The notes below the pieces were generated by a model. The model was given only the letters and a program-made list of their open reading frames with translations, did no database searches and was not told the origin of the DNA. A program made the translations under genes and the position numbers. Positions 2,790 through 53,026 of a stretch of 64,000 nt of DNA are shown piece after piece (position 1 is the stretch's first letter; each line of letters starts with the position of its first letter). The DNA comes from an uncultured Acidobacteriota bacterium (GTDB lineage: Bacteria > Acidobacteriota > Polarisedimenticolia > J045), in the NCBI GenBank assembly GCA_964420365.1, contig CAYQTA010000011.1, positions 13,031-77,030 of the forward strand. The letters run 5' to 3'.

Positions 2790-4295
2790 TCACGGAGTCC
2801 CGCGGGAAGGGTGGAGCATCGGCGGACCGGGAGGCAGCAGGACGTCGGGCAGGAAGTCCTCGAGGTGCGGGAAGTCGTGGAGACGACGGTCGTAGGCCGC
2901 CTCGAGGAACGCGTCCACCCACCAGAAGATGTCGTAGCGGCGAATGTTGTCCCGCAGGCGACGCATCCGCGCCCGACGCTCCGCCCGGTCCATCGTGATG
3001 CCCCGGTAGAGGGTCTCCGCCACCCCCTCGATGTCGTGGGGGTTGACCAGGAGCGCCCCCCGGTGGAGCTGGGCGGCCGCGCCGGCGAACTCGGAGAGGA
3101 CGAGCAGCCCCTCCCCGTCGACCTGGCACGCGCAGTACTCCTTGGCGACCAGGTTCATCCCGTCCTTGAGCGGCGTCACGAACGCGATGTCCGCCGCCCG
3201 GTACCAGGCGACGAGTTCCTCCCGTGGCAGGCTCCGGTAGTGGTAGTGGATGGGAACCCAGCCCCAGGCCGTGAACCGGCCGTTGATCTCGCCGACCAGT
3301 CGCTCGATCTCCGCCTTGAGCTGCTGGTATTCCTCCACGCCCTCCCGGCTCGGGACGACGACCTGGACCAGGCTGATCCGCCCGCGAAGATCCGGGTGAC
3401 GCTCGAGCAGCGTGCGGAACGCCTCCAGCCGCTCGGGGATTCCCTTCGTGTAGTCCAGGCGGTCGACGCCGAGGACGATCTTCCGCTCGCCGAACGTCTC
3501 CCGGAGGGCCCGGACCCGCCGCTCGACCCCCGGGGTCCGCGCGAGGCGCGCGAACTCCCGGAAGTCGATGCTGATCGGGAACGCACCGACGCGGATCGTC
3601 CGCCCCCCGCCCACCAGCTCGATCACCGGGCCCCTGCCCTGGGGCCGCAGGTCCCGGACGAGGTGCTGGAGGCACTGGAGGAAGTTGCGCCGGTCGCGGG
3701 GGGTCTGGAAGCCGATCAGGTCGTATTCCAGGAGCGCACGCAGGATCTCGGCCCGCCACGGCAACCGGAGAAACACGTCGACCGGGGGGAACGGCACGTG
3801 GAGGAAGAAGCCGATCCTCCGGTCCACGCCGAGGGAGCGCAGGGCCTGTCCCACGTGGACCAGGTGGTAGTCGTGGACCCAGACGTACTCCCGGCGGCTC
3901 CAGCGGACGATCTCGCGGGCGAACCGCCGATTGACGTCGAGGTACCGGTACCAGTAGCGGGGCAGGAAGCGGCAGCGGGTCTGGAAGTCGTGGAACAGGG
4001 GCCAGAGGACCTCGTTGGAGAAGCCGTGGTAGAAATCGCGGACGTCCGCCTCGTCGAGGGGCACCGGGCGGAGGCGGTATCCCGCCGCCCGGGCCGCCCC
4101 CGCGAACAGCGGTTCCAGCTCGTCGTGGGGGATCCCGGCCGTCCCGCTCCAGCCGATCCACGTGCCCCCCCGGTCGCGCAGCACGGGCGCCAGGGCGGTG
4201 ACCAGCCCCCCGGAGCCGGGCCGGATCTCCCGGCGGCCATCCCCGTGCTCGTGGAGACGAACGGGAAGGCGGTTCGAGACGACGACGAGTCCCAT
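2790..4295 (-). CDS. otsA: Trehalose-6-phosphate synthase (GT20)
   Basis: Motifs [42 protein letters not shown] and [10 protein letters not shown]. Start set at MGLVVVSNR. Confidence 0.93.
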
Positions 4296-4339
4296 CGCTC
4301 TCCCCTCGGCCCCCTTTGTGGCACCGCCCCCCTCCCCCG

Positions 4340-5077
4340 TCAAGCGAGGCCCTCGCGCCACGCGTCGAGGAATGCCAGCAGGTCCCCGGGGGGCACGAGG
4401 TGCCAGCGGGCCGCCGACCGTCGCGGCCGCGGTGCGACCAGCACGGCGAGCCCTCCGGGCGGCACCGCCCGGAAAGCGTCCTCGTCCGTCCGGTCGTCCC
4501 CGAGGTAGGCGACCAGGTCCGCTTCCCGGGCGAGGCGGCGGACCGCCCGGTCCTTCCGGGCGGCCGTGGCCCGCAGCTCGAGCCCGCCGGCGAAGGGCAG
4601 CAGGTCGAGACCATCCCCCGCCAGCGGCCCGAGCACGGACCGGGCCTCCTGCTCGCGGGACACCGGGTCGCCCCGCCAGTGAACGGCGACCCCGGCCGGC
4701 TTCACCTCCACGCGCGCGGCAGGAAACCGTGCCCGCGCGCGGCGGGCAGCCTCGGCGAGACGCCGGGCAACTCCCGGTGGCAGCGGCTCGTCACCGAGAC
4801 CGTGGTTGCCGACGATCTCCGGGAGGGGGGTGATCCCGAGGAGGGGCGGGAGGTCGGACGGATTCCGGCCGGTGACGATCGTGACCCTCCCCCCCGCCGC
4901 CAGGATCGCCGCCAGCCGCTCCCGCACCCCTGGCCAGGGAACGGCCCGGTCCCGCTCGACCCGGAACGGGGCGAGCGTGCCGTCGTAGTCGAGGAGCAGG
5001 AGCGGACGGCGGGCCCCGGCGACCAGCTCCCGGACGCGGCCGGGCTCGAGGGGCCGGGGCAGGTGCTCCCCGGTCAC
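4340..5077 (-). CDS. otsB: Trehalose-6-phosphate phosphatase (HAD family)
   Basis: Motifs LLLDYDGTLAPF, IVTGR, VEVKPAGVAVHWR and YLGDDRTDEDAF; adjacent to otsA. Confidence 0.9.
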   Translation of the reverse strand: MTGEHLPRPLEPGRVRELVAGARRPLLLLDYDGTLAPFRVERDRAVPWPGVRERLAAILAAGGRVTIVTGRNPSDLPPLLGITPLPEIVGNHGLGDEPLPPGVARRLAEAARRARARFPAARVEVKPAGVAVHWRGDPVSREQEARSVLGPLAGDGLDLLPFAGGLELRATAARKDRAVRRLAREADLVAYLGDDRTDEDAFRAVPPGGLAVLVAPRPRRSAARWHLVPPGDLLAFLDAWREGLA

Positions 5078-6321
5078 GCCGCGGGCCCCACCTCGAGCCG
5101 GTCCCCGGTGCCCCGCATCAGGGAAAGCATCAGGGCCAGGTGGTCCCGCACGTGGCGGGTGATCAGGAAGTTCTCCCGGACGATCCGCCGCGCCCGCTCC
5201 CCCATCTCGCGGCGCTTGTCATCCCGGTAGAGCAGGTAGCGGATCCGCAGGGCCGCTCCCTCGGGCGTCGTCACCCGGAACCCGGTGAAGTGGTCGATCA
5301 CCTGGAGCCGGATCCCGCCGGTGTCACCGCCGATGACGGGCTTCCCCTTCCACATCGCCTCGGTCACGGTCAGGCCGAAGCCTTCCCGGAGCGACTTCTG
5401 CAGGACGACGTGGGCGGCCCGCTGCAGCGCGTTGATCGTCCGGTGGGCGTTCGAGGGAAGCACCAGCACGTGCACGTCGTCGTCCCACTCCGCCGCCTTG
5501 CGCACCTCCTCGAGGACCGCCTCCCCCTCCGGGTCGTCCGCGGCGGACCCGCCCGCCAGCACGAGCTGGTGGGGCACGAACTTCCGCGCGATGCGGGACG
5601 CCTCGATGACCCCGAGCGGATCCTTGAAACGGTCGAAGCGGCTGACCTGGAGGATCATCGGCTTGCCCGGGTCGAGCCCGAACCGCTCGAACACCTGGGC
5701 GACCTCCTCCTCCGGCAGGTCCATGTTCTTCTCCGAGAGCGGGTCGATGCTCGGCGGGATCAGCACCTGCTCGTGGGGCAGCGGCTGGGCGAACTCCGGC
5801 AGGTGGAAGATGCTCGCGTCGTAGCGCGACACGATCGGCCGGAGGAACTTCCAGACCGGGCGGTACGGGTGACTGACGTCGATGTGACAGCGCCAGATCC
5901 ACTTCCCGCGCCGCCCGGGAAGGTGCTCGATCAGTGCCGCCGGCTGCGGGTCGTGGATGAAGACGATCTCGGCGTCCTCGAGCAGCTCCCCCAGCAACCC
6001 GGCATTCCGCTCGTTGACCTGCCGGTACTCCTCGAGAAGGGAGTCCGGAACGTGAACGTGCGCTCCCTGGAGCGCGTTGTGAAAGTTCTTCGTGCAGCGG
6101 AAGAACTCGTCGGTTCCCTCGATCACCTCCCACCGGGCGTCGATCCCGAGCGCCTGCATCAGGGGGATCAGCTTGTGCAGGATCTCGGCGACCCCGCCCC
6201 CCTCGCGCGTCGAGTTCACGTGGACGACGCGAACGCCCTCGAGGGGGTGGGCGAGCTGTCGCAGGTGCTCGACCGCGTCCCGGCCGGCAACCTCGGCATA
6301 CCGCTCCAGCAGGTCGCTCAT
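5074..6321 (-). CDS. treT: TreT-type trehalose glycosyltransferring synthase (GT4)
   Basis: Motifs VNSTREGGGVAEIL, HDPQP, WRCHID, QVSRFDRFKDPLG and QKSLREGFGLTVTEAMWK. ATG 6321 overlaps the upstream stop (ATGA). Confidence 0.85.
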   Translation of the reverse strand: MSDLLERYAEVAGRDAVEHLRQLAHPLEGVRVVHVNSTREGGGVAEILHKLIPLMQALGIDARWEVIEGTDEFFRCTKNFHNALQGAHVHVPDSLLEEYRQVNERNAGLLGELLEDAEIVFIHDPQPAALIEHLPGRRGKWIWRCHIDVSHPYRPVWKFLRPIVSRYDASIFHLPEFAQPLPHEQVLIPPSIDPLSEKNMDLPEEEVAQVFERFGLDPGKPMILQVSRFDRFKDPLGVIEASRIARKFVPHQLVLAGGSAADDPEGEAVLEEVRKAAEWDDDVHVLVLPSNAHRTINALQRAAHVVLQKSLREGFGLTVTEAMWKGKPVIGGDTGGIRLQVIDHFTGFRVTTPEGAALRIRYLLYRDDKRREMGERARRIVRENFLITRHVRDHLALMLSLMRGTGDRLEVGPAA

Positions 6322-6974
6322 GCCCTCACCTCCTCGAGCTCCTCGCGGAACATCTGCGCCAGTTGGCGCCGGATCTCCTGCAGGGACGAGAAGTACGGGT
6401 CGATCGCCCCGATCCGCTCCCGCAGCCCGCGGTACCGCTCTCCGAGGGGCTCGAGCCAGGTGCAGAAGTCGTCGCTGCACTGCTCGGTCCGCCGCCGGGC
6501 GTCGATGAAGTGGTAGTAGATCGCCCCCTCGGACAGGGACGGCAGGATCCGTCCGAGCTCCTCCGGGGTCTCCACCCGTACGCCCGCGTCGAACACGACG
6601 ATCCGGGAACGGAGGAAGTGGAACCGCTGGTCGGCGCGCGACCAGGGCACGTACTCGCTCTGGTCCAGGCGATCCTCGACGATGTCGAGCAGCTCCTCGC
6701 GCAGTTCCTCGAGGTCCTGGAAGTCGACGGGGTTGACGACGGCCAGCCGCTCCGCCAGCGCCTTGTCGTGCAGCCCGTGCCAGGCCCAGGCAGCGAAGTC
6801 GTTGTTGTACTCCGGCTCGTCGAACCAGGGCTGCAGCAGGCGGCCCCAGAAATGGTGGTAGATCGAGTCGACCGGGACCCGCTGGAGCCCGTCGCGGAAC
6901 TCCCGCAGGTTCTGGGCCCAGGTCCCGGTCGCGATCGTCACCAGCGCGCAGTCCCGGACGGTGAAGGGAGCCAT
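6318..6974 (-). CDS. DUF5752-family (TreT-associated) protein
   Basis: Two internal repeats (SIYHHF…NNDFAAW; AIYYHF…SDDFCTW) typical of the protein encoded beside treT. GGAGG upstream of ATG 6974. Confidence 0.75.
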   Translation of the reverse strand: MAPFTVRDCALVTIATGTWAQNLREFRDGLQRVPVDSIYHHFWGRLLQPWFDEPEYNNDFAAWAWHGLHDKALAERLAVVNPVDFQDLEELREELLDIVEDRLDQSEYVPWSRADQRFHFLRSRIVVFDAGVRVETPEELGRILPSLSEGAIYYHFIDARRRTEQCSDDFCTWLEPLGERYRGLRERIGAIDPYFSSLQEIRRQLAQMFREELEEVRA

Positions 6975-7083
6975 CTCGCACCTCCGCCTCACCGTTCAAT
7001 CTATCCCGCCACGGTTCGCGGCGGCAAGGTGGAACGCGTGCCTCGGGAAACGTCGCCGGCGCCGGAGCGGGGCGGCGCGGGAA

Positions 7084-8640
7084 TCAGCCCGGGACGCGCC
7101 AGACGGTGTCCAGGACGGTGCCGTCGACCCACTTGATGACGGCGACCGGCTCGTCGGTCAGCTCGGGCCGGGCGGGCTTGCCGCCGACGATCCGCTCCAC
7201 CTCCGCCTGGATCTCCTCGATCGGCCGGACCGGGAGGTCGGTTCCCCTCACCGCATCGAGCAGGTCCTGCCGGAGCGGGTTGATCGCGATCCCCCGCTCC
7301 GTGACGACCACGTCGACCAGCTCGGAGGGACCGGTGATCGTCGTCACCTCGTCGACGATCACCGGGATCCGGTCCCGGAACGAGGGAACGGCGAGGATCG
7401 TGCACCGGGAGAAGAGGCAGTTCTGCCAGCCGCCGATCCCGTGAAGGAGCCGGCCGTCCGAGTGGGTGACCACGTTGGCCCGGAACCGGACGTCCACCTC
7501 GGTCGCCCCGAGCACCACCGCGTCGACCATCGACGCGAAGTTTCCCTTGCCGTGGTAGTTGTACGAGGTGAACGGCGTGGTCGGGACGTGCCGCGGGTCG
7601 CTGGCGATCGAGCGGACGGCGTCCAGGTCGAAGGTCTGCCCGTCGAGGATGTAGTCGGTCAGCCCCTCCTGGAGCATCTCCACCAGGACCTTGGTCGATC
7701 CCCCCCGGACGAACCGCGCCTTGACGCCCGCCTCCCGCATCATCTCGCGCAGGAACGCGACGAAGGCGAGAGAGATGCCGCCGGCCCCGGCCTGGAACGA
7801 GAAGCCGTCCCTCATGATGCCCGCCTCGCGGATGAAGCGGGCCACCAGCTCCGCGATCCGCAACCGGTCGGGACTGCGCGTGATGCGGGTCGTGCCGGAA
7901 ACGATCTTCTCCGGGTCCCCGATCGAGTCGACCTCGACAACGTAGTCGACGTCGTTCCCGTGGATCTGCCAGGGGATGCACGGAAACGGCACCAGGTTGT
8001 CGGTGACCACGATCACGTGGTCGGCATAGATCGAGTCGGCGACGGCGAACCCGAGGGAACCGCAGGCCGAGGGCCCGTGGGCCCCGTTGGCGTTCCCGAA
8101 CGGGTCGGCGCAGGGCGCGGCGATCACCGCGATGTCGACGTGGACCTCGCCGTCCTGGATCGCCTGCCAGCGCCCGCCGTGGGAGCGGAGGACCCCGAGT
8201 CCCCGCATCTTCCCCCGCGAGCAGTAGTCTCCCAGGGGCCCGTTCATCGAGCCCTCGATGTGGTGGACGACTCCCTGCTCCATCAGGTCGATCACCGGCG
8301 CGTGGCAGGGGAAGGAGGCGCTGGGAAACCACATCAGGTCCTTCGCGCCGAGCCGGGCGGCCGCCTCGAGGGCGGCGAGGGCGACGCGGTCCCCGTTGCG
8401 CAGGTGGTGGTGGGTCGAGATCGTCATCCCGTCCCGGAGACCGCAGGCCTCGAGGGCCGCCTCGAGGGACGGCACCCGCTTGTCCCCGTCCGCCGGGTAG
8501 TCGGCGCAGGTCCGGATCGGGGGCGCGGCCTTCCTGCCTTCCGGCCGGTACTTCCCCACCCCCCGGTACGGCACCTGGGCCCTGCCGTTCACCTCCGTGG
8601 GAACCAGCCGGCCCGCCGCGTTCTTCACCATCCCGCTCAT
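7084..8640 (-). CDS. citF: Citrate lyase alpha subunit-like CoA/ACP transferase
   Basis: Motifs GLRDGMTISTHHHLRNGD, GVLRSHGGR, ACGSLGFA, FSFQAGAGG and LGATEVDVRFRANV. ATG 8640 overlaps the upstream stop. Confidence 0.88.
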   Translation of the reverse strand: MSGMVKNAAGRLVPTEVNGRAQVPYRGVGKYRPEGRKAAPPIRTCADYPADGDKRVPSLEAALEACGLRDGMTISTHHHLRNGDRVALAALEAAARLGAKDLMWFPSASFPCHAPVIDLMEQGVVHHIEGSMNGPLGDYCSRGKMRGLGVLRSHGGRWQAIQDGEVHVDIAVIAAPCADPFGNANGAHGPSACGSLGFAVADSIYADHVIVVTDNLVPFPCIPWQIHGNDVDYVVEVDSIGDPEKIVSGTTRITRSPDRLRIAELVARFIREAGIMRDGFSFQAGAGGISLAFVAFLREMMREAGVKARFVRGGSTKVLVEMLQEGLTDYILDGQTFDLDAVRSIASDPRHVPTTPFTSYNYHGKGNFASMVDAVVLGATEVDVRFRANVVTHSDGRLLHGIGGWQNCLFSRCTILAVPSFRDRIPVIVDEVTTITGPSELVDVVVTERGIAINPLRQDLLDAVRGTDLPVRPIEEIQAEVERIVGGKPARPELTDEPVAVIKWVDGTVLDTVWRVPG

Positions 8641-9824
8641 GCGTCGTCTCCCAGGAGGCCCATCGCCCGGGCCCGCTCCACGAGCTTGAGTGCCCGCTCG
8701 ACGACGGGCGGATCGATCATCTTGCTGCCGAGGCTGACGACGCCGAGCCCCCTCGCCTGCGCGTCTTCGAAGGCCGCGACGATCTTCCGGGCCCTCTCGA
8801 TCTCGGCGGCGGAGGGGGCGAACGCCTCGTGGATCACCGGGACCTGCCGCGGATGGACCGCCCCCATTCCCTCGAAGCCGATCGCCCGGGCCCGCTCGCC
8901 CCACGCCCGGAGGCCGTCCATGTCGGCGACGTTCCCGTAGACCGAGTCGATCGCCTGGATGCCCGCCGCCTTGGCGGCATTGACGAGGCGCAGCCGGGCC
9001 CAGAGGCTCTCCTCGCCCCCCGGCGTCTTCACGACCCCGAGGTCGGCCGTGTAGTCCTCGAGCCCGATCGTCAGCGCACAGACCCGCTCCGAGGCGGTCG
9101 CGATCTCGAACGCCCGCTCGATCCCGAGGGCCGACTCGAGGATCGGCATCAGCCAGACGTCCCGGTCGGGCAGGATCCGCCGGATCGCGGCGTCCACCTC
9201 GCGGACCTGCTCGGCGGACTCGACCTTCGGGACCAGCACCAGGTCCGGCCGTTCCGGGATCACCTCCCGCAGGTCCTCGAGTCCCAGCGGGAGCTGGTTG
9301 ATCCGCACCATCCGCTCGGCCCCGCCGAAGTCGATCGCCCGCAGGGCGTTGCGCACCAGGAGCCGGGCCGCGTCCTTCTCCGCCGGGTGCACGGAGTCCT
9401 CGAGGTCGAGGATCAGGCCGTCCGCCCCGTGGAGCCCGGCGTTCGGGAAGTACTTCGGCTCGTTGCCCGGGAGGTAGAGCCGGGACCGGCGCAGCCGGTC
9501 CCGGGGCGACGGGGGGGGCAGGGGGAGCCCCCCGGGGAGGTGCCGCTTCCCCTCGCCGAGGCCCGCCCGGCGCACCGCCGCCTCGATCCGGGCCGCGATG
9601 ACGAACGGCAGGGCTCCCCGGTCGTCGATCTCGAGCCGACCGGCGGTGACCCCCAGGTCCGCGAGAACCCGCCGCGCCTGCTCCTCGATCGCCGTGCCGT
9701 ACCAGGTGGCGACCTTCGACCGCAGCTCGATGCGGAGACCGTCCCCGCCCGGCTCGAAGCGGACGAACAGGTCCGAGCGAACCCCATCGCCCCGGCGGCC
9801 GGCCTCTCCCGCGCGCTCGCCCAT
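8637..9824 (-). CDS. CitD (ACP-like)-CitE (citryl-CoA lyase family) fusion
   Basis: The N-terminal ~90 aa are CitD-like (RSDLFV…IELRSKV…YG.AI…IDDRGALPFVIAARIEAAV). The CitE domain follows: RRSRLYLPGN, ILDLEDSV, RMVRIN, ILESALG, GLEDYTADLG, HPRQ. Confidence 0.85.
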   Translation of the reverse strand: MGERAGEAGRRGDGVRSDLFVRFEPGGDGLRIELRSKVATWYGTAIEEQARRVLADLGVTAGRLEIDDRGALPFVIAARIEAAVRRAGLGEGKRHLPGGLPLPPPSPRDRLRRSRLYLPGNEPKYFPNAGLHGADGLILDLEDSVHPAEKDAARLLVRNALRAIDFGGAERMVRINQLPLGLEDLREVIPERPDLVLVPKVESAEQVREVDAAIRRILPDRDVWLMPILESALGIERAFEIATASERVCALTIGLEDYTADLGVVKTPGGEESLWARLRLVNAAKAAGIQAIDSVYGNVADMDGLRAWGERARAIGFEGMGAVHPRQVPVIHEAFAPSAAEIERARKIVAAFEDAQARGLGVVSLGSKMIDPPVVERALKLVERARAMGLLGDDA

Positions 9825-9835
9825 GGTTTCCTCGC

Positions 9836-11020
9836 TCACAGGTTGGCGATGATCGCGTCCGTCATCTGCGTCGTCGTGGCCGCTCCCCGGGAGATCGCGT
9901 CCGGGCCACCCGGGATCTTCATCATGTCGTAGGTGCGGACCTTCCCCTCCGCGATCACGGCCGCGATCGCCTCGCGCACCCGCCTCGCCTTCTCCTCCTC
10001 GCCCACGTGGTCGAGCAGCATCGCGGCGGAGAGGATCATCGCGATCGGGTTGACGATCGGGGGGTCGAGCTCGGCGTACTTCGGCGCGGACCCGTGGGTC
10101 GGCTCGAACACCGCGACCTCGTCCCCGATGTTCCCCGAGCAGGCGAACCCGAGCCCGCCGACCAGCCCGGCAAAGGCGTCGGAAACGATGTCGCCGAACA
10201 GGTTGCCGGCGACGATCACGCCGTAGTCCTCCGGGTTCTTCGTCAGCCACATCATCTGGGCGTCGATGTTCGTCGACCAGAGCTCGATCTCCGGGAAGTC
10301 CTTCCGCACCTCGCGCGCGACCTCCTCCATCATGCCGGAGGTCTCGCGCAGCACGTTCGGCTTCTCGCAGACCGTCACCGACCGGTACCCGTGCTTCTTC
10401 GCGTACTGGAAGGCCGCGGTGAGGATCCGGCGGCAGGCACGCCGGGTGAAGATCCGAACGGAAAGGGCCAGGTCCTCGCCGGGAACGTCCTTGAAGCGCT
10501 CGAACTTGGGATGCGTCTCGAGCGCCTTGCGGACCACCTCCGGCGGATCGGTCCACTCGACGCCCGCGTAGAGCCCCTCGGTGTTCTGCCGGAAGATCAC
10601 GGCGTCCACCGGCGGCTCCTCGAACCCGCCGTCGGGGGTCCGCCGGATGAAGTTCAGCGGGTTCCCCCTGAACGACCGGCAGGGCCGGATGCAGACGTCG
10701 AGGTTGAACCGCTGCCGCATCCCGACGATCGGGGAGAAGTAGACGTATCCCCTGTCGCGCAGGGAGGGATCGAGTTCCTTCGCCGCCTCGGCCTTGGGCT
10801 TGCTCGTGATCGCCCCGAAGAGTCCCAGCTTGTGCTCGGCGAGCAGCTCGACGGTCCGCTCCGGGAGGGGATTCCCCTCCTTCACCCAGAACTCCCAGCC
10901 GATGTCCGCGTGCACGTACTCGGCATCGAAGCCGACCGCGTCGAGGACGCGGATCGCCTCCGGCAGCACGGTCTTGCCGATCCCGTCGCCGGGCATCGCC
11001 ACCACGGTGTACTTCGCCAT
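9836..11020 (-). CDS. Isocitrate/isopropylmalate/homoisocitrate dehydrogenase family protein
   Basis: Motifs PGDGIG, GAITS, SPIVGMR, NTEGLY, KPNVL, NLFGDIVSD and FEPTHGSAPKYA. Confidence 0.9.
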   Translation of the reverse strand: MAKYTVVAMPGDGIGKTVLPEAIRVLDAVGFDAEYVHADIGWEFWVKEGNPLPERTVELLAEHKLGLFGAITSKPKAEAAKELDPSLRDRGYVYFSPIVGMRQRFNLDVCIRPCRSFRGNPLNFIRRTPDGGFEEPPVDAVIFRQNTEGLYAGVEWTDPPEVVRKALETHPKFERFKDVPGEDLALSVRIFTRRACRRILTAAFQYAKKHGYRSVTVCEKPNVLRETSGMMEEVAREVRKDFPEIELWSTNIDAQMMWLTKNPEDYGVIVAGNLFGDIVSDAFAGLVGGLGFACSGNIGDEVAVFEPTHGSAPKYAELDPPIVNPIAMILSAAMLLDHVGEEEKARRVREAIAAVIAEGKVRTYDMMKIPGGPDAISRGAATTTQMTDAIIANL

Positions 11021-11024
11021 CGTC

Positions 11025-12983
11025 TCACCCCTCCTGGTTCCCGCCCGCGGCGAGCTTCTGTTTCACGAGGTTCTCCACCCCGCCCGCGACGACCAGCGCC
11101 TGGGGCACCTCCGACAGGGCGGGGAACGGCCACTCCTTCCCGTCCCAGCGGATGACGCCCGCGGCGAAGTCGACCTCGATCTCCTCGCCGGGGACGATCG
11201 TCCGCTCGCCGGCCGCGACCCGGTCCGCGAACCGCTCCCGGAGGGCGGCGACCAGGTCGGGCTGGACGATGCAGGCGAAGCCGTTGTTGAACGCGTTCCT
11301 CAGGTACGTCTGGGAGAAACCGGCCGCGATCACCAGCGCGATCCCCTTCGCCTGCAGCGCGGTGACCGCCTGCTCGCGGCTCGACCCGGTGCCGAAGTTG
11401 AACCCGCCGACGAGGACGTCTCCCTCGCGGGTCTTCGCCGCGAACTCCGGGTCGTAGTTCTCCATCACGACCCGGGCCATCTCCTCCCGGGTCATGTCCT
11501 CGCGGTAGGTGTAGTCCTTTCCGTAGATGCCGTCGGTGTTGAGGTTGTCCTGCGGCAGGAAGACCAGCCGCCCGCGGACCCGCTCCGGGAACCCCGGGAG
11601 GATCTCCACCCTCGCCGGCTCCCGGGCCGGTTCCTCGAACTGCTCGATCCGCCGGGCCGGTTCCCGCGCGTCCCACTCGCCGGGGCCGGTGATCTTCCCG
11701 GCCAGCGCCGAGGCAGCGACGACGGCAGGACTCGCCAGGTAGCAGCGGGCGTCCCGGGACCCCATCCGGCCCTTGAAGTTCCGGTTGGTCGCCGAGATGC
11801 CGACCTCCCCCGCCTCGAGGAGCCCCACCCCGAGCCCGATGCAGGGGCCGCAGGCGGGGGGCAGCATCACGGCGCCCGCCTCCTTGAGAATGCGCCAGGT
11901 CCCACGGCGCTCCGCCTCCGCCTGGATCTCCCGGCTGGCCGCGGCGACGTACAACCGTGCCCTCGCCCTCTTCCCGGCCAGGACCCGCGCCGCCGCCTCC
12001 AGGTCCTCGAGGCGGGAGTTCACGCACGAAAGGATGTAGGCCCGGTCGACGGGAATCTCCTGCCGGGCGACTTCAGGCAGCGGCGCCCCGGCCTGGACGG
12101 TGTCCGGGCCGGCCACGTGGGGCACGACCTCCCCGAGGTCGAGGACGATCCGGGCCGCGTAGCGGGCATCCGGGTCGGGCGCCGGGGGATCCTCTTCCCA
12201 CCGGTCGATGTCGTCCGCGGAGAACGGCCGCCGCCCGGTCGCCTCGAGCACGGCGAGCCGCTCCCGGAACCAGGCGATCGTCCGCCCGTCCACCGGGAAC
12301 CAGCCGGTGAGAGCACCCCACTCGGTCGTCATGTTGGCGATCGTCATCCGGGCATCGATCGAGAGCTCGGCGACCCCCGGCCCCGCGAACTCGACGGCGG
12401 CGTTCAGCGCCTCCCCCTCCCGGTACAGCCGGCAGAGGGCGAGGATCACGTCCTTGCCGGTGACGCCCTCCCGGAGCTTCCCCTCGAGGACGACCTGGAC
12501 GGTCCGCGGCACCTGCCACCAGGTCTCCCCGGAGGCCCAGATCGCGGCCGCGTCGGTCCGCACGACCGGCGTGCCGAGGGCACCGACCGCCCCGTACATG
12601 TTCGAGTGGCTGTCCGACGCGACGACCAGGGCGCCGGGAGTGACGTACCCCTGCTCCAGCATCACCTGGTGGCCGATGCCGGTGCCCGCCGGCCAGAAGT
12701 CGATCCCCTGTTCCCGGGCGAACGCCTCGATCGATGCGTACTTGGCCAGGTTCTTCGCCGACACGTTCTGGATGTCGTGATCGAGGGCGAAGACCGGCTG
12801 CCGGGGATCGTGGACCCGGGGGATGCCGAGTCCCCGGAACTTCTTCATCACCGCGGCCGTGTTGTCGTGGGTCATCACGTGCTTCGGGCGCACGGTGACG
12901 AAGTCGCCGGCGCGCACCTCCCGGTCCCGCGGACCGGAGGTCATGTGCGCCTGGGCGATCTTCTCGGCAATCGTCTGGCCCAT
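11025..12983 (-). CDS. Single-chain homoaconitase-like hydratase (fungal Lys4/LysF type; large and swivel domains fused)
   Basis: Motifs HVMTHDN, LDHDIQN, GIGHQVM, ASDSHSNMYG, RTDAAAIWASGETWWQVP; Fe-S cysteines in SCVNSR and ACGPCIG; C-terminal DNLNTDGIY…MENYDPEF…NFGTGSSREQA. Confidence 0.85.
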   Translation of the reverse strand: MGQTIAEKIAQAHMTSGPRDREVRAGDFVTVRPKHVMTHDNTAAVMKKFRGLGIPRVHDPRQPVFALDHDIQNVSAKNLAKYASIEAFAREQGIDFWPAGTGIGHQVMLEQGYVTPGALVVASDSHSNMYGAVGALGTPVVRTDAAAIWASGETWWQVPRTVQVVLEGKLREGVTGKDVILALCRLYREGEALNAAVEFAGPGVAELSIDARMTIANMTTEWGALTGWFPVDGRTIAWFRERLAVLEATGRRPFSADDIDRWEEDPPAPDPDARYAARIVLDLGEVVPHVAGPDTVQAGAPLPEVARQEIPVDRAYILSCVNSRLEDLEAAARVLAGKRARARLYVAAASREIQAEAERRGTWRILKEAGAVMLPPACGPCIGLGVGLLEAGEVGISATNRNFKGRMGSRDARCYLASPAVVAASALAGKITGPGEWDAREPARRIEQFEEPAREPARVEILPGFPERVRGRLVFLPQDNLNTDGIYGKDYTYREDMTREEMARVVMENYDPEFAAKTREGDVLVGGFNFGTGSSREQAVTALQAKGIALVIAAGFSQTYLRNAFNNGFACIVQPDLVAALRERFADRVAAGERTIVPGEEIEVDFAAGVIRWDGKEWPFPALSEVPQALVVAGGVENLVKQKLAAGGNQEG

Positions 12984-12997
12984 CACGGCCTCCCGGC

Positions 12998-14371
12998 TCA
13001 GGCGTCCTTCGCGCAGAGCGCCATCAGCTCGGTGATCGAGCCGAGGTTCTCCAGGTTCCAGACGGCCTCCTTCAGCCTCGCGCGCCGCTCCTCCGAGAGC
13101 ACCGGGGCCGCGAGGGCGTCGAACTTCGCCTCGATCTCCTCGTCCGAGAGCGGGTTGCGCGGGTCGCCCTTGGGATAGTCGAGCTGCTTCTCGTAGCGCT
13201 GCCCGTCGACCGTCTCGATGGTGACGTGGACCCGCTGCAGCTCGGGAAAGACCTTCTCGATCTCCGGGTCGGCGAGGACTTCCACCTTGTGGAGCTGTTC
13301 CCGGATCACCGGGTCCATGATGCGCTCCGGCGTGAAGGCCGCAGGGGTCACGTTCCGGTCGACCAGGGCCGCGGCGATCACGTACGGCAGCGAGTGGTCC
13401 GCCGTTTCCTTGCTCCGCGGGTCGTACTTGCTCGGGTCGGCAAGGATGTCGGCGGCACGGGCGAGAGAGCGGATGATCACCTTCTTCACTCGCTCCGGTG
13501 CCAGGTCGTGCTCCCGCACCAGGTCGAGGACGGCGGAGATCGGCGTATGGGTCAGCGCCTCGGTCGGAAACGCCTTCATCCCGCAGCGGGTGATCCGCCA
13601 CGACTCTCCCAGCCCCTCGACCAGGATGTCCAGCTTCCACTCCGGCCCGAGGCAGTGGACCAGCCCCTCCTTGCCGTCGATCACGTGCTCCGGCCCCGTG
13701 TAGCCCTTCTCCGCCAGGAGGGCCGCCAGCACGCCGGACTGGGTGGCCAGCGGGTCGACGGTGTTCTTCATCATCGTCAGCTTGCCGGCGGTCACCGCGC
13801 CCAGGGTGGCGTGGCGGCTGCCGGAGATACCGATCGCGTGCTGGATCTTCTCCCAGTCCAGGTGAAGCATCCGCCCCGCGACGATCGGCGCGGCGAACGC
13901 GGTCAGCGTCGCGTGGTGCCAGCCCCGTTCCCGGATCCCCGGGAACGCGATCTCGCACAGCCGCATCTCGAACTCGTGTCCGAGCACGATCCCGACGATC
14001 AGCTCCTTTCCGTCTCCCCCGGCCCGCTCGCCGCACGCCATCGCCGCCGGGATGATGTCCGAGGGATGGGACGGGTCCTGCTGCCAGTAGATGTCGTTGT
14101 AGTCCATCACCCGGACCATCAGGGCGTTCGCCAGCGAGGCCGAGACCGGGTCGAGCCGCTTCCCGGTCCCGATCACCGTGGCCGGCCCCTCCCCGGCGCA
14201 CTCCTCGAGGACGCCGAGGGCGATCTCGACGTCGTGCTTGGTGTACCCCCCGAGGGCACACCCGAGGGAATCGAGGAGGAAGCGCTTCGCCTCCCGGACG
14301 GCCTCCGGGGACAGGTCGTCGAACCTGAGGTCGGCGGCCCAGCGGGCCATCTTCTCGGTGATCGTGCTCAT
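12998..14371 (-). CDS. MmgE/PrpD-family dehydratase
   Basis: Motifs LLDSLGCALG, RVMDYNDIY…HPSD, RGWHHAT, KAFPTEALTH, ETADHSLPY and PKGDPRNPLSDEEIEAKF. ATGA overlap with the upstream gene. Confidence 0.9.
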   Translation of the reverse strand: MSTITEKMARWAADLRFDDLSPEAVREAKRFLLDSLGCALGGYTKHDVEIALGVLEECAGEGPATVIGTGKRLDPVSASLANALMVRVMDYNDIYWQQDPSHPSDIIPAAMACGERAGGDGKELIVGIVLGHEFEMRLCEIAFPGIRERGWHHATLTAFAAPIVAGRMLHLDWEKIQHAIGISGSRHATLGAVTAGKLTMMKNTVDPLATQSGVLAALLAEKGYTGPEHVIDGKEGLVHCLGPEWKLDILVEGLGESWRITRCGMKAFPTEALTHTPISAVLDLVREHDLAPERVKKVIIRSLARAADILADPSKYDPRSKETADHSLPYVIAAALVDRNVTPAAFTPERIMDPVIREQLHKVEVLADPEIEKVFPELQRVHVTIETVDGQRYEKQLDYPKGDPRNPLSDEEIEAKFDALAAPVLSEERRARLKEAVWNLENLGSITELMALCAKDA

Positions 14372-14910
14372 CGCAGGCTCTCCTTGAAGGGCAGGAAGCT
14401 CATGAAGTCCGCGTGGTGGACGATCGTCGCCTCGACGCTGCGCTTCACCATGTTTCCCTCGCCGGCGTGCGCGGCGATGACGTGGCACACCGCGTCGGGC
14501 ACGCCGCACTCCATGGCGAGGGCCACGCCGGTGAACGGGTGCCGCAGGTACTTCCCGCGCATGCTCTGCCGGGCCTCGCCCTCCACGATCTCGTACTCGA
14601 GGAGCTTGCCGACGTCGGCGAGGATCGCCCCCGCGATCACGACGTCCATGTCGATCGGCAGCGACTTCCCCATGAACTCCCGCATCGCCTCGGCGGACCT
14701 CCGGGCGATGTGGACCACGCAGCGCTTGTGTTCCATGAAGGTGACCGGGCAGTCCGGCACGAGCAGCGTGAACGGGATCCGCTCGAGGTCCTCCGGGGCC
14801 AGCGGACTTCTCTCGAGGGCAAGCTCCCATGTTCGCTCGACTTTTGCCCGCAGGTCGGAGTCGGAGATCCACTCCAGCTCGGGCCACAGGCGGCGGACGG
14901 CGTCGCTCAT
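14368..14910 (-). CDS. HD-superfamily (HDIG-like) protein with HD replaced by AD
   Basis: Motifs MEH(61)KRCV, GAILA(98)D(99)VGKLLEY, RHPFTG, IAAHAGEG and IVHHAD. First gene of the operon. Confidence 0.75.
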   Translation of the reverse strand: MSDAVRRLWPELEWISDSDLRAKVERTWELALERSPLAPEDLERIPFTLLVPDCPVTFMEHKRCVVHIARRSAEAMREFMGKSLPIDMDVVIAGAILADVGKLLEYEIVEGEARQSMRGKYLRHPFTGVALAMECGVPDAVCHVIAAHAGEGNMVKRSVEATIVHHADFMSFLPFKESLR

Positions 14911-14976
14911 CGCGGGTTCTCCTTCCGGTTGTGGCCGGTAAGATTACCCGGCCCGCATCCCGGAGGCCAAGGCTCG

Positions 14977-15594
14977 ATGACCCGGATCCCCCCCCACCAC
15001 CCGAGGAACTTCCTCTTCGACCTGTCCGCGCCCGCCTGGGACGTCCTGATGGGCCGCTGGGCGCTGCGCGACGTCCTCCGGCGGCTGGGCCCCGGGCGCG
15101 GCAGGCGGGTCCTCGACCTCGGCGGGGCGACCGGACGCCTGTCCGTGCACCTGGCCCGCCTGGGGATGCGCCCGGTTGTGCTCGATCCGTCCCTCCCGAT
15201 GGTTCGCCGGGCCCGGAGACGGGGCCTCGCCGCCGTGGCCGGCTCGGCCCATGCCCTGCCCTTCCGGGACGGCGCGTTCGACGCGGTGATCGTCCTCGAC
15301 GCCCTGCACCACGTGTCCGACATCCCCCGGAGCCTCGGGGAGGCCGCCCGCGTCCTCGAGCCCGGGGGCCGGCTGCTGCTCCACGAGCCGGATCCCGAGA
15401 CGGCCATGGGACGGCTGACGGCGGTGCTGGAACGCCTCGCGGGGATGGGCAGCCTGCTCCTGCCGGCGGCGACCCTCGAGGCCCTCCTCCGGGAGGCGGG
15501 CCTCGAGGTGGTCCTCGTCGAGCGAAGGCGCTTCCATCTCGAGATCGAGGCCGGGAAACCGGGCCCCGGACCTCCCCGGCCGCCTAGAGGGTGA
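14977..15594 (+). CDS. Class I SAM-dependent methyltransferase
   Basis: Motifs VLDLGGATG, AHALPFRDGAFDAV and VLEPGGRLLL. GGAGG upstream of ATG 14977. Confidence 0.8.
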   Translation: MTRIPPHHPRNFLFDLSAPAWDVLMGRWALRDVLRRLGPGRGRRVLDLGGATGRLSVHLARLGMRPVVLDPSLPMVRRARRRGLAAVAGSAHALPFRDGAFDAVIVLDALHHVSDIPRSLGEAARVLEPGGRLLLHEPDPETAMGRLTAVLERLAGMGSLLLPAATLEALLREAGLEVVLVERRRFHLEIEAGKPGPGPPRPPRG

Positions 15595-51408: not shown

Positions 51409-52349
51409 GCGCACGCATCCTCGACGGCAAGGCCCTCTCCCGCCGCCTGCAGGCCGACCTGGCCGCGCGCGTCGCCGACTTCGCCCGGCGCGCCGGCCGG
51501 CCACCCGGTCTCGCGGTCGTCCTCGTCGGCGACGACCCGGCAAGCGCCGTCTACGTGCGGAACAAGGAGAAGTCGGCCCGGGCGATCGGCATGGCCTCCA
51601 CGGTCGAGCGCCTGCCGGCGGAGGCCACGAGGGAGCGGGTTCTCGCGACGGTCCACCGCCTGGCCGGGAACCCGGAGATCGACGGCATGCTGGTCCAGCT
51701 CCCCCTGCCCGGCCACCTGGACGAGCGGGAGATCCTGGAGGCGATCCCGCCGGGCAAGGACGTGGACGGGTTCCACCCGGTCAACGCGGGCAAGCTGCTC
51801 CTCGGCGAGGACGATGGCATCGTCGCCTGCACTCCCCGCGGAATCCTCGCGCTGGTCGACGAGGCGGGGCTCGATCTCGCGGGGAAGCGGGCCGTGGTGG
51901 TCGGCCGTTCGAACATCGTCGGCAAGCCGGTGGCGCTGCTGCTGCTCCGGCGGCACGCGACGGTGACGGTCTGCCATTCCCGGACGCGGGACCTCGCCGC
52001 GGTGTGCCGCGAGGCCGACCTGCTGGTCGCCTCCGTCGGCCGGCCGGGCCTGGTGCGGGGCGACTTCGTCAAGGAGGGAGCGGTCGTGATCGACGTCGGG
52101 ATCAACCGGGTCACGGACCCGGCCCTGGCCGAGGACCTGCTCGGCGGCCAGGAGAAGCGGCTCGCCCGGTTCCGGCAGAAGGGGCACGCCCTGGTGGGCG
52201 ATGTCCACTTCGCCGAGGCGGCGGCCCGCGCGGCGGCGATCACCCCCGTACCCGGGGGGGTCGGCCCGCTCACGGTCACGATGCTGCTCGACAACACGCT
52301 CCTCGCCGCCGAGCGGGCGCTCGCCGCGGGAGGACCGGCCGCCCGATGA
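51405..52349 (+). CDS. folD: Methylenetetrahydrofolate dehydrogenase/cyclohydrolase
   Basis: Motifs [42 protein letters not shown] and [12 protein letters not shown]. Confidence 0.96.
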
Positions 52350-53026
52350 CCGGTCGCCTGCGCCCCCGCTCCCTGCCCCGCCCGGTCCTCGTCGCGGGAC
52401 TGACCGGCGGCATCGCCACCGGGAAGAGCACGGTGGCGGGGATGTTCCGGGAGCTGGGCGCGGCGGTGGTGGACGCGGACGGGATCGTCCACGACCTCCT
52501 CGGGCCGGGGGGAGCCGCGGTCCCGCCGATCGTCGCCACCTGGGGCCGGGGAGTGCTCCTGCCGGAAGGCGGCATCGACCGGGCCCGCCTGGCCGAGATC
52601 GTGTTCGGGGACGACGGGGAGCGGCGACGGCTCGAGGAAATCGTCCACCCCATGGTGGTCGAGGAGAGCCGGCGCCGGATCACCGGGCTGGCCATGACGG
52701 GGGGGGTCGACGTGATCCTCTACGACGCCGCTCTCCTGGTGGAAACCGGCCGCCACGACCAGTTCGATCGGCTGGTCGTCGTCGTGGCCGACCCGGAGGT
52801 CCAGCTCCGGCGCCTGATGGACCGGGACCGGATCGACGCGGACGCGGCGGGGGCGAGGATCCGCGCCCAGCTCCCCCAGGACCGGAAGGCGGCCGTCGCC
52901 GACTACGTCATCGACAACTCCGGTCCCTGGCACGAGACCCGGAAACGGGTGGCCGAGGTCTACCGGGATCTCCGGGAGGACGCCCGGCTCCTCCGGGAGG
53001 GAAAGCCCCTGCCGCTCCGCGCCTGA
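52346..53026 (+). CDS. coaE: Dephospho-CoA kinase
   Basis: Motifs GLTGGIATGKS, IDRARLAEIVF, LEEIVHP, DAALLVE and RIRAQLP. Confidence 0.94.
   Translation: MTGRLRPRSLPRPVLVAGLTGGIATGKSTVAGMFRELGAAVVDADGIVHDLLGPGGAAVPPIVATWGRGVLLPEGGIDRARLAEIVFGDDGERRRLEEIVHPMVVEESRRRITGLAMTGGVDVILYDAALLVETGRHDQFDRLVVVVADPEVQLRRLMDRDRIDADAAGARIRAQLPQDRKAAVADYVIDNSGPWHETRKRVAEVYRDLREDARLLREGKPLPLRA

What the first reader, a model, noticed from the sequence alone, without database searches (positions are those of the whole stretch)
9554..9824. CitD acyl-carrier domain fused to CitE with the prosthetic-group Ser apparently displaced
Seen: the N-terminus reads EAGRRGDGVRSDLFV. Known: canonical CitD has AGTLES[SG]D, with the phosphoribosyl-dephospho-CoA attached to the Ser two residues before the Asp. 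Here that position is Arg16, a Ser sits one residue later, and there is a 3-residue insertion. The operon also lacks CitG, CitX and CitC. Inference: the domain may be a structural pseudo-ACP, with the lyase working on free CoA thioesters; alternatively Ser17 is modified by a different route.
Basis: partly seen in the sequence, partly recalled or inferred. Interest (0 to 1): 0.68.

Follow-up and report, generated by a model that had tools for sequence, protein, structure and literature searches.

The report
Citrate-lyase carrier domain lacking its serine
A citrate-lyase-like enzyme found in hundreds of soil and sediment bacteria has a built-in carrier domain in which the serine that normally holds the cofactor arm is replaced by arginine, and the genes that load that arm are not nearby. 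It therefore probably runs on free coenzyme A, which is untested but departs from the textbook enzyme.

Summary
Window 8637..9824 (-) encodes a 395-aa CitD::CitE fusion, and its stop overlaps the CitF start. Three independent alignments (HMMER, HH-suite, MAFFT) place Arg16 on the prosthetic-group Ser14 of E. coli CitD, Ser17 on Gly15 and Asp18 on Asp16.

This is a large subfamily, not a local oddity. At least 436 GTDB species carry it, mostly Acidobacteriota. The loop (E)AG(R/H)xGxD(V/I)RSD is its best-conserved part.

Ser17 is probably not a displaced attachment site. Across the family that position reads S, rarely G or A, which is the S/G spectrum of the canonical residue just before the Asp. 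Intact natural Ala and Gly variants exist. The canonical Ser position is Arg or Lys in about 99%.

No citC, citX or citG homologue was found in the 64-kb window or within 10 kb of the gene in 81 related loci. Canonical citrate and citramalate lyase clusters carry them adjacent.

Most likely (about 0.5) the enzyme has no covalent arm and cycles free acyl-CoA, with the carrier-like domain kept as a conserved adaptor. Unlinked CitX/CitG acting on Ser17 is not excluded, because whole genomes could not be searched.

The gene sits in a six-gene operon of unknown substrate (HD, PrpD-like, homoaconitase, homoisocitrate-DH-like, CitD::CitE, CitF) that is conserved across phyla.

The parts
9554..9824 (-). 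CitD/MdcC-family carrier-like domain (residues 1-90) of the fusion protein
   Evidence: Pfam PF06857 at 66.7 bits and TIGR01608 at 56.1 bits (below its 63.5 cut-off). hhalign to E. coli CitD at 97.9%. The AF2 domain model is beta3-alpha-beta-alpha with pLDDT 86.
9768..9806 (-). Conserved loop E7-L19 (EAGRRGDGVRSDL), the counterpart of the canonical AGTLES(S/G)D prosthetic-group loop
   Evidence: Mean pairwise identity is 72.5%, against 63.2% for the whole domain. G9 is invariant and R16, S17 and D18 are at least 98.7% conserved.
9777..9779 (-). Arg16 codon (CGC), at the position of the canonical prosthetic-group Ser (E. coli CitD Ser14, MdcC Ser25)
   Evidence: Alignments. R in 312/315 sequences, with K, Q and G once each. 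R or K in 126 of about 137 distant representatives that cover the loop.
9774..9776 (-). Ser17 codon (TCG), the counterpart of the canonical S/G residue before the Asp
   Evidence: S 311, A 3, G 1. All Ser codons are TCN and all Ala codons are GCC. RGD and RAD variants occur among the 50%-identity representatives.
9489..9553 (-). Linker of about 22 residues (91-112, Pro/Arg-rich) between the carrier-like and lyase domains
   Evidence: No secondary structure but pLDDT 86-89 in the full-length model. It is the least conserved segment at 52.7%.
8637..9488 (-). CitE-type acyl-CoA lyase domain (residues 113-395) plus stop codon
   Evidence: HpcH_HpaI at 177.7 bits; TIGR01588 citE at 260.8 bits (cut-off 443.4). 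39% identity to E. coli CitE. Foldseek and phmmer hits are malyl-CoA lyase, CLYBL and CitE. The DLEDSV and GLEDYTAD motifs (E142, D143, E256, D257) and E230 are invariant in 316 sequences.
7084..8640 (-). CitF-type alpha subunit (acyl transferase). Its ATG overlaps the CitD::CitE stop (ATGA).
   Evidence: PF04223 at 446.6 bits; TIGR01584 at 495.1 bits against a 501.45 cut-off. 39% identity to E. coli CitF. Adjacent in 78 of 81 loci.
9836..11020 (-). Beta-decarboxylating dehydrogenase (Iso_dh family) of the same operon
   Evidence: PF00180. The closest solved relative is Thermus homoisocitrate dehydrogenase 3asj/1x0l. Val stands at the Arg85-equivalent position.
11025..12911 (-). Fused large+small aconitase-family hydratase. 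The start may be 12986.
   Evidence: TIGR00139 homoaconitase at 711.8 bits, above its 529.9 cut-off. Pfam Aconitase + Aconitase_C.
12998..14365 (-). MmgE/PrpD-family protein
   Evidence: PF03972 + PF19305. The closest solved relatives are IDS epimerase and IRG1/cis-aconitate decarboxylase, ahead of 2-methylcitrate dehydratase.
14368..14910 (-). 180-aa HD-domain protein, first gene of the operon
   Evidence: PF01966 at 30.5 bits and TIGR00277 HDIG at 33 bits. Present in 71 of 81 loci. 'LADVGK' is invariant, so the His of the HD dyad is Ala. It stays next to CitD::CitE-CitF in L066, where the three middle genes are absent.

Best explanation
Shown: window 8637..9824 (-) encodes a gamma-beta fusion. 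A genuine but non-canonical CitD/MdcC-family domain is joined by a linker of about 22 residues to a CitE-type acyl-CoA lyase, and the gene is translationally coupled to a CitF-type transferase.

Shown: throughout this large subfamily the Ser that carries the 2'-(5''-phosphoribosyl)-3'-dephospho-CoA arm in canonical carriers is Arg or Lys. The adjacent Ser17 is the counterpart of the canonical small residue (S/G) before the conserved Asp, not a relocated attachment site.

Inferred: the complex has no covalent arm. CitF transfers CoA from free acetyl-CoA to the tricarboxylate substrate, releasing acetate. The CitE domain then cleaves the acyl-CoA into a 2-oxoacid plus acetyl-CoA, so a catalytic amount of free CoA thioester cycles between the two sites. 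These are the partial reactions EC 2.8.3.10 and EC 4.1.3.34, which from my own knowledge the isolated alpha and beta subunits of citrate lyase can perform.

Inferred: the carrier-like domain is retained under strong selection as an adaptor. It may dock the beta and alpha subunits, or hold free CoA non-covalently through its basic loop.
For: 1. Register. Three methods put R16 on E. coli Ser14 (or MdcC Ser25) and S17 on the S/G position.

2. Family-wide pattern. R/K stands at the canonical Ser position in 313/315 close members and in 126 of about 137 distant representatives.

3. Ser17 is replaceable.
- Ala in L038, which is intact and has the full operon.
- Ala in P0135 and L007, which are 77% identical to each other and come from independent assemblies.
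- Ala in L017 and P0274.
- Gly in P0157, P0327, P0341 and P0387.
- In all of these the rest of the domain stays conserved.
- 47 other columns, including the metal-binding and catalytic acidic residues of CitE, show zero substitutions in the same 316 sequences.

4. No citC, citX or citG homologue was found:
- in the 64-kb window;
- in 8-10 kb beyond its right end;
- within 10 kb either side in 81 loci from different species.
- Clustering of 1157 flank ORFs shows only the six operon genes recur.

5. By contrast, the canonical E. coli, E. faecium and P. acidaminophilum clusters all have citC, citX and citG adjacent. The same is reported for clostridial citramalate lyase clusters (PMC4682846).

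6. NCBIfam equivalog cut-offs are missed for CitD (56.1 against 63.5) and CitE (260.8 against 443.4).
Against: - The loop is the most conserved part of the domain (72.5%), and Ser17 is 98.7% conserved. That fits a residue with a specific chemical role as well as it fits a structural one.
- Some of the Ala variants lie in imperfect assemblies. L007 has an in-frame TAG and L017 has frameshifts.
- The accessory genes could be unlinked. The Geobacter genome paper reports G. sulfurreducens as having a citG-citX pair with no citrate lyase structural genes (PMC2996986), so unlinked accessory genes are plausible.
- Whole genomes could not be searched.
- No residue-level structural superposition was possible. 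Model coordinates are not exposed, no CitD structure exists, and MdcC was not among the top 50 Foldseek hits.
- No biochemical data exist.
Confidence: 0.5

Rival explanations
1. Ser17 is a functional attachment site, shifted by one residue. It is loaded with the usual phosphoribosyl-dephospho-CoA arm by CitG and CitX, and acetylated by CitC or by acetyl-CoA. These accessory enzymes are encoded elsewhere in the genome.
For: - R16, S17 and D18 are at least 98.7% conserved and the loop is the best-conserved part of the domain.
- The Asp that follows the Ser in canonical carriers is kept.
- Many canonical CitDs already have a Ser at this position (ESSD in E. faecium and P. acidaminophilum).
- A citG-citX pair without citrate lyase structural genes is reported in G. 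sulfurreducens, so accessory genes need not sit beside the lyase genes (PMC2996986).
Against: - None of 81 loci has citC, citX or citG within 10 kb, whereas every canonical cluster inspected does.
- Natural Ala and Gly replacements occur in otherwise conserved, intact proteins.
- The substitution spectrum matches the canonical non-attachment S/G position.
Confidence: 0.27
2. The domain carries a cofactor attached by a new route. The conserved HD-domain protein of the operon would take part in making, attaching or trimming it.
For: The HD protein is the only non-catalytic gene that travels with the lyase genes (71 of 81 loci). It stays beside CitD::CitE-CitF in L066, where PrpD, ACN and IDH are missing. 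It is very conserved and has an unusual invariant LADVGK motif.
Against: - HD domains are phosphohydrolases or oxygenases, not transferases.
- hhalign and hmmsearch find no similarity to AcpH, CitX, CitG or CitC.
- L029, L040, L052 and L072 have CitD::CitE + CitF without a detectable HD gene nearby.
- Ser17 can be Ala or Gly.
Confidence: 0.08
3. The CitD-like domain is an evolutionary relic with no function, a decaying pseudo-domain.
For: The canonical Ser and the accessory genes are lost.
Against: - The domain is present in all 81 loci and all full-length hits.
- Mean pairwise identity is 63%, with invariant G9, V38 and D68 and a loop as conserved as the catalytic domain.
- The AF2 fold is confident.
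Confidence: 0.02

Closest known systems
Canonical citrate lyase CitDEF with CitC/CitX/CitG (E. coli citCDEFXG, Klebsiella, Enterococcus)
   Same: The three modules are homologous. The CitE domain and CitF are each 39% identical to the E. coli proteins and the CitD domain is 33% identical. Gene order is D-E-F with overlapping reading frames. The catalytic motifs of CitE are conserved.
   Different: - CitD is fused to CitE.
- The prosthetic-group Ser is Arg.
- No citC, citX or citG lies nearby in any of 81 loci, whereas they are adjacent in E. coli and E. faecium.
- The genes sit in an operon with PrpD-like, homoaconitase and homoisocitrate-DH-like genes rather than citrate transport and oxaloacetate decarboxylase genes.
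Clostridial-type citramalate lyase cluster (P. acidaminophilum plasmid EAL2_808p; C. tetanomorphum enzyme)
   Same: Its beta subunit is the best CitE-domain match in the plasmid collection (43% identity, 202 bits). This shows that the CitDEF architecture is used for substrates other than citrate.
   Different: That cluster has a separate CitD with the canonical ESSD motif, plus CitC and a long citX-annotated gene (424 aa) adjacent. It sits beside glutamate mutase and methylaspartase genes.
Ignavibacterium album IALB_1147 (CitE-CitD fusion) and IALB_1146 (CitF)
   Same: The published genome description has the same fusion architecture and an adjacent CitF (PMC3362086). Related FCB-group loci (L052, L072) carry the RSDC form of the loop.
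   Different: The paper treats it as an ordinary ATP-independent citrate lyase. It does not mention the missing Ser or citC/X/G. Those lineages lack the upstream four genes.
Stand-alone CitE-like CoA-ester lyases (M. tuberculosis CitE, human CLYBL, malyl-CoA and citramalyl-CoA lyases)
   Same: Same fold and catalytic residues. They work on free CoA thioesters without any carrier protein, which is the mode proposed here.
   Different: They have neither a CitD-like domain nor a CitF partner.
Malonate decarboxylase carrier MdcC (PDB 5vit/5vj1)
   Same: Same Pfam family (PF06857). It aligns in the same register: its GDLEV matches the family's SDLxV.
   Different: By this alignment and from memory of the MdcC sequence, MdcC has the Ser two residues before the Asp (Ser25). 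It depends on MdcB and MdcG. The sequence match is weak (E 0.13), and it was not among the top 50 Foldseek hits of the domain model.

Membership tests
Citrate lyase acyl carrier protein CitD (PF06857 / TIGR01608) | Sequence membership in the Pfam ACP (MdcD/CitD) family | tested here: met
   66.7 bits against a 25.1 cut-off, E 2e-18. hhalign to E. coli CitD at 97.9%.
Citrate lyase acyl carrier protein CitD (PF06857 / TIGR01608) | Equivalog-level score in NCBIfam (TIGR01608 at least 63.5; PRK13253 at least 65) | tested here: not met
   56.1 and 60.9 bits.
Citrate lyase acyl carrier protein CitD (PF06857 / TIGR01608) | Ser at the prosthetic-group position (E. coli Ser14 in ES[SG]D) | tested here: not met
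   Arg16 aligns there by hmmsearch, hhalign and MAFFT. R/K stands there in about 99% of the family.
Citrate lyase acyl carrier protein CitD (PF06857 / TIGR01608) | Covalent 2'-(5''-phosphoribosyl)-3'-dephospho-CoA on the protein | not testable with these tools
   This needs mass spectrometry of the protein.
Citrate lyase acyl carrier protein CitD (PF06857 / TIGR01608) | Same fold as a solved family member (MdcC) | tested here: inconclusive
   The domain model (pLDDT 86) is beta3-alpha-beta-alpha. The top Foldseek hits are EF-G domain IV and ribosomal protein S9, and MdcC is not in the top 50. No CitD structure exists.
Holo-citrate lyase system (CitDEF + CitC, CitX, CitG) | Holo-ACP synthase CitX and triphosphoribosyl-dephospho-CoA synthase CitG encoded with the structural genes | tested here: not met
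   No hit in the window or within 10 kb in 81 loci. The only weak CitX hit is GalT. Genome-wide presence was not testable.
Holo-citrate lyase system (CitDEF + CitC, CitX, CitG) | Citrate lyase ligase CitC encoded with the structural genes | tested here: not met
   No hit at E < 0.01 with three CitC queries.
Citrate (pro-3S)-lyase beta subunit CitE (TIGR01588) | Equivalog-level score (at least 443.4) and HpcH/HpaI fold with the Mg-binding acidic residues | tested here: inconclusive
   The fold and motifs are met. The equivalog score is not (260.8). Substrate identity is unknown.
Citrate lyase alpha subunit CitF (TIGR01584) | Equivalog-level score (at least 501.45) | tested here: inconclusive
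   495.1 bits, just below the cut-off. PF04223 scores 446.6 bits.
Carrier-independent CoA-ester lyases (CLYBL / malyl-CoA lyase / Mtb CitE type) | Acts on free acyl-CoA; no gamma or alpha subunit partners | tested here: not met
   The fused CitD-like domain and the coupled CitF are present. Use of free acyl-CoA is inferred, not tested.

The most novel reading that the evidence does not exclude
The CitD-like domain is a non-covalent CoA carrier. The Arg/Lys that replaced the phosphodiester-bearing Ser, together with the Gly/Arg-rich loop, would bind a phosphate of free (acyl-)CoA. A reversible ionic tether would thus replace the covalent arm and make CitC, CitX and CitG dispensable.

This arm-less lyase would be the terminal step of an undescribed six-gene tricarboxylate pathway: HD protein, PrpD-like dehydratase, homoaconitase, homoisocitrate-DH-like enzyme, CitD::CitE and CitF. 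One possibility is the interconversion of 2-oxoadipate or another 2-oxoacid with a homocitrate-type acid that is cleaved to acetate plus a shorter 2-oxoacid. The pathway is widespread in Acidobacteriota.
Probability: 0.2. Interest if true: 0.8.

Novelty: new variant of a known kind. Interest (0 to 1): 0.6.

Why it matters
Citrate lyase is the textbook case of an enzyme that needs a dedicated carrier protein, a unique phosphoribosyl-dephospho-CoA arm and three accessory enzymes to build and prime it. A subfamily present in hundreds of species has kept the carrier fold, and above all its loop, while replacing the attachment Ser with a basic residue and shedding the accessory genes from its neighbourhood. 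That would show how a covalent swinging-arm enzyme can revert to, or evolve into, a free-cofactor enzyme.

It also bears on annotation. In the sources searched here these genes are named 'citrate lyase subunit beta/citryl-CoA lyase', 'citrate lyase ACP' or 'aldolase/citrate lyase family protein', and the I. album genome paper considered the fused enzyme for a reverse TCA cycle. The operon partners (homoaconitase, a homoisocitrate-DH-like enzyme with Val at the Arg85 position, a PrpD-like protein) suggest the real substrate may not be citrate. The pathway is common in Acidobacteriota, which are abundant in soil and peat, and it is uncharacterised.

Tried and rejected
- HD protein as a disguised AcpH, CitX, CitG or CitC: hhalign probabilities are at most 0.5% and hmmsearch finds nothing. 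Rejected.
- Weak phmmer hits of E. coli CitX to a 345-aa protein in about 20 loci: Pfam shows it is galactose-1-phosphate uridylyltransferase, separated from the operon by rhodanese and thioredoxin-like genes. Rejected as chance or synteny.
- Searching for a larger Ala clade with L038 and P0135 as queries: neither has a relative closer than about 69% in the 5.8-billion-protein set. The Ala forms are therefore rare lineages, not a big clade.
- Residue-level structural superposition of Ser17 on the canonical Ser: not possible. No CitD structure exists, model coordinates are not exposed, and MdcC was not in the Foldseek top 50 for the domain model.
- Promoter and terminator scan of 6800..15300: nothing found, as expected at 73% GC.
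- Plasmid collection: no fused CitD::CitE, only separate CitE genes.
- Literature: no paper on missing citC/X/G in Acidobacteria, on the six-gene operon or on a homocitrate lyase. The Arg85 specificity data for Thermus HICDH could not be retrieved and rest on my memory.
- Sequencing runs: only DNA metagenomes (hydrothermal vent, sediment) hold the region, with no RNA evidence.
- The long ORF 8637..10556 in the mechanical ORF list is a high-GC artefact that runs into the Iso_dh gene. Homologues and the RBS support the ATG at 9824.
Full report
**What is at the coordinates**

The finding lies on the minus strand. The mechanical ORF list shows a long ORF, 8637..10556, but its upstream 244 codons overlap the Iso_dh gene and are a high-GC artefact. 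The real start is the ATG at 9824, 11 nt after the Iso_dh stop and preceded by GAGGA. Gene callers on identical and related contigs give the same 395-aa product. The product begins MGERAGEAGRRGDGVRSDLFV.

Pfam finds the ACP/MdcD family (PF06857) at residues 17-87, at 66.7 bits against a 25.1 cut-off, and HpcH_HpaI at residues 113-325. NCBIfam gives citE 260.8 bits (cut-off 443.4), citD 56.1 bits (cut-off 63.5) and, for the next gene, citF 495.1 bits (cut-off 501.45). The CitF ATG overlaps the fusion's stop codon (ATGA). The CitD::CitE fusion with an adjacent CitF is therefore real.

**The Ser register**

I took E. coli K-12 CitD from the annotated citCDEFXG operon. I took two more canonical CitDs from an E. 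faecium plasmid and from the P. acidaminophilum citramalate-lyase-type cluster. Their loops read AGTLESGD, AGTLESSD and AGTIESSD.

- A profile of 316 family members aligns to E. coli CitD with S17<->G15 and D18<->D16.
- hhalign (97.9% probability) adds R16<->S14 and places a 3-residue gap after AG.
- MAFFT gives the same register with no gap, by pairing family G12 with the canonical AG glycine.
- A profile search of the PDB aligns the family's SDLxV with GDLEV of MdcC (5vit_C), again putting the family Ser one residue after the carrier Ser.

The '3-residue insertion' depends on the alignment.

**This is a family trait**

The protein search returned 8000 hits. The best 120 were all fusions with the loop (E)AG(R/H)xGxD(V/I)RSD. 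A scan of one genome per GTDB species with the domain alignment found relatives in at least 436 species. The best 80 are mostly Acidobacteriota (Terriglobia), plus Planctomycetota, Eisenbacteria, Binatia, Calditrichota, Hatepunaea and Aquilonibacter. An exhaustive HMM search of 1.84 billion cluster representatives gave 394 hits at E <= 1e-10. Of the best 150, 126 have [RK]SD in the loop.

**How constrained is Ser17?**

Among 316 unique full-length sequences:

| Position | Residues observed |
|---|---|
| 16 | R 312, and K, Q, G once each |
| 17 | S 311, A 3, G 1 |
| 18 | D 314, E 1 |

In the same set 47 columns show no substitution at all, including G9, V38 and D68 in the carrier domain and the acidic and catalytic residues of CitE.

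The Ala forms are:
- L038, a Planctomycetota MAG with an intact protein and the full operon;
- P0135 and L007, 77% identical to each other and from independent assemblies, although L007 has an in-frame TAG between the domains;
- L017, which also has frameshift errors;
- the distant representative P0274.

Gly occurs in P0157, P0327, P0341 and P0387. All Ser codons are TCN and all Ala codons are GCC, so the changes are single transversions. In every variant the rest of the domain keeps its conserved motifs.

The spectrum at this position (S, then G and A) is what canonical CitD and MdcC show at the residue before the Asp, which is S or G. I therefore read Ser17 as the homologue of that small residue. 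The attachment Ser itself has been replaced by a basic residue.

**The domain is not decaying**

Mean pairwise identity by segment:

| Segment | Identity |
|---|---|
| Carrier-like domain | 63.2% |
| Loop, residues 7-19 | 72.5% |
| Linker | 52.7% |
| CitE domain | 74.7% |

AlphaFold2 gives a confident full-length model (pLDDT 89, pTM 0.87) in which even the unstructured linker has pLDDT 86-89. That suggests a fixed docking of the two domains. The domain alone folds as beta3-alpha-beta-alpha with pLDDT 86. The CitE part matches malyl-CoA lyase, CLYBL and CitE structures. Foldseek did not return MdcC among the top 50 for the small domain, whose best hits are EF-G domain IV and ribosomal protein S9. 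Fold-level membership stays inconclusive.

**Accessory genes**

phmmer --max and tblastn with CitC, CitX and CitG from E. coli, E. faecium and P. acidaminophilum found nothing in the window or in 81 related loci with up to 10 kb on each side. The only weak CitX hits are to a bona fide GalT. Looking up the window's end genes extended the view by 8-10 kb beyond the right end; no CitC, CitX or CitG family appears among the genes there that carry Pfam data. The left-end look-up added only about 1.5 kb. Clustering all 1157 flank ORFs shows that only six genes recur.

In contrast, all three canonical clusters inspected carry citC, citX and citG next to citDEF. The same is reported for clostridial citramalate lyase clusters (PMC4682846).

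The limit of this evidence is that whole genomes could not be searched. A citG-citX pair is reported in G. sulfurreducens, which has no citrate lyase structural genes (PMC2996986), so accessory genes unlinked to the lyase genes are plausible.

**Operon context**

In about 71 of 81 loci the same six genes occur in the same order at 62-82% identity to the window proteins: HD protein, MmgE/PrpD-family protein, fused aconitase-family hydratase, Iso_dh-family dehydrogenase, CitD::CitE and CitF.

- The hydratase scores above the trusted cut-off of the fungal-type homoaconitase model TIGR00139 (711.8 against 529.9).
- The dehydrogenase is closest to Thermus homoisocitrate dehydrogenase and has Val where that enzyme has Arg85. 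From memory, an R85V mutant of that enzyme loses isocitrate activity. That is a lead, not a test (one search found no text).
- The PrpD-like protein is closer to IDS epimerase and IRG1 than to 2-methylcitrate dehydratase.
- The HD protein is highly conserved, has an invariant LADVGK in place of the HD dyad and remains next to CitD::CitE-CitF in L066, where the middle three genes are missing.

The substrate may therefore not be citrate. A homocitrate- or alkyl-citrate-type acid is plausible but unproven.

**Mechanism**

Shown:
- the architecture;
- the Arg-for-Ser replacement;
- the conservation pattern;
- the local absence of accessory genes;
- natural Ala and Gly variants at position 17.

Inferred: the complex lacks a covalent arm and cycles free acetyl- and acyl-CoA between CitF (CoA transfer) and the CitE domain (C-C cleavage). 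These are activities that, from my own knowledge, the separated citrate lyase subunits are known to have. The carrier-like domain would be kept as an adaptor, possibly binding CoA phosphate through its basic loop. I give this about 0.5. Loading of Ser17 by unlinked CitX/CitG gets about 0.27, a new modification route about 0.08, and a functionless relic about 0.02.

**Novelty**

The fusion itself was noted in the Ignavibacterium album genome paper as an ordinary ATP-independent citrate lyase (PMC3362086), with no mention of the Ser or of citC/X/G. I found no literature on the Arg-for-Ser subfamily, on the missing accessory genes or on the six-gene operon. I rate it a new variant of a known kind, of moderate to high interest, and resolvable by a simple genome-wide HMM search plus mass spectrometry and acetyl-CoA-dependent assays.

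Noticed in passing
window 7084..14910 (-); L002, L006-L085: A six-gene operon (HD, PrpD-like, fused homoaconitase, Iso_dh-like, CitD::CitE, CitF) is conserved in order and strand in about 71 of 81 species-level loci, at 62-82% amino-acid identity. It spans Acidobacteriota, Planctomycetota and Eisenbacteria. The substrate is unknown and I found no literature on it.
   Followed up: partly
window 14368..14910 (-): The 180-aa HD-domain protein has an invariant 'AGAILADVGKLLEYE' motif, so the His of the HD dyad is Ala in all 72 homologues. It has no close solved relative (best PDB E 0.29). In L066 it stays with CitD::CitE-CitF, with a DinB-family gene in between, while PrpD, ACN and IDH are absent.
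   Followed up: partly
window 9836..11020 (-): The Iso_dh-family enzyme is closest to Thermus homoisocitrate dehydrogenase. It has Val at the Arg85-equivalent position and two insertions of roughly 12 and 40 residues. Its substrate may be neither isocitrate nor a standard homoisocitrate.
   Followed up: partly
L007 about 6046..6048: An in-frame TAG replaces the conserved Ser of the RRSRLY motif, exactly between the carrier-like and CitE domains. The same sequence also has Ala at position 17. It could be a pseudogene, a sequencing error or a natural split.
   Followed up: no
L052 6792..13309: Between CitD::CitE and CitF, about 7 kb of apparently mobile or defence genes is inserted. A 783-aa and a 547-aa ORF look like restriction and methylase genes, with small toxin-antitoxin-like ORFs; this rests on N-terminal sequence only and no family search was run. 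In L072 a 753-aa ORF with no Pfam match separates the two genes.
   Followed up: no
window 2790..6974 (-): Directly downstream on the same strand lies a trehalose cluster: Glyco_transf_20 (OtsA-like), trehalose phosphatase, TreT-type glycosyltransferase and DUF5752 (Pfam from the same organism's contig L003).
   Followed up: no
P0248 (representative library): A 1882-aa protein made of about 21 near-identical repeats of roughly 88 residues tops the HMM search with the carrier-domain profile (21 matched stretches). It looks like a repeat-driven spurious hit, not a CitD relative.
   Followed up: no
L091 4262..7490 (P. acidaminophilum plasmid): The citramalate-lyase-type cluster next to glutamate mutase and methylaspartase genes has a 424-aa gene annotated citX, long enough to be a CitX-CitG fusion (not checked). 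It also has an unannotated 321-aa gene and citC, divergently adjacent to citD, a CoA ester lyase gene and citF. It served as a useful canonical comparator.
   Followed up: partly
whole window: GC content is 72.6%. Only DNA metagenomes from hydrothermal vents and sediments hold the region (99% of sampled words in one vent run). The high GC produces many long spurious ORFs on both strands in the mechanical ORF list.
   Followed up: partly
window 52346..53026 (+): A dephospho-CoA kinase (CoaE-like; GLTGGIATGKST P-loop, judged from sequence only) lies 42 kb from the operon. It is probably housekeeping and unrelated.
   Followed up: no
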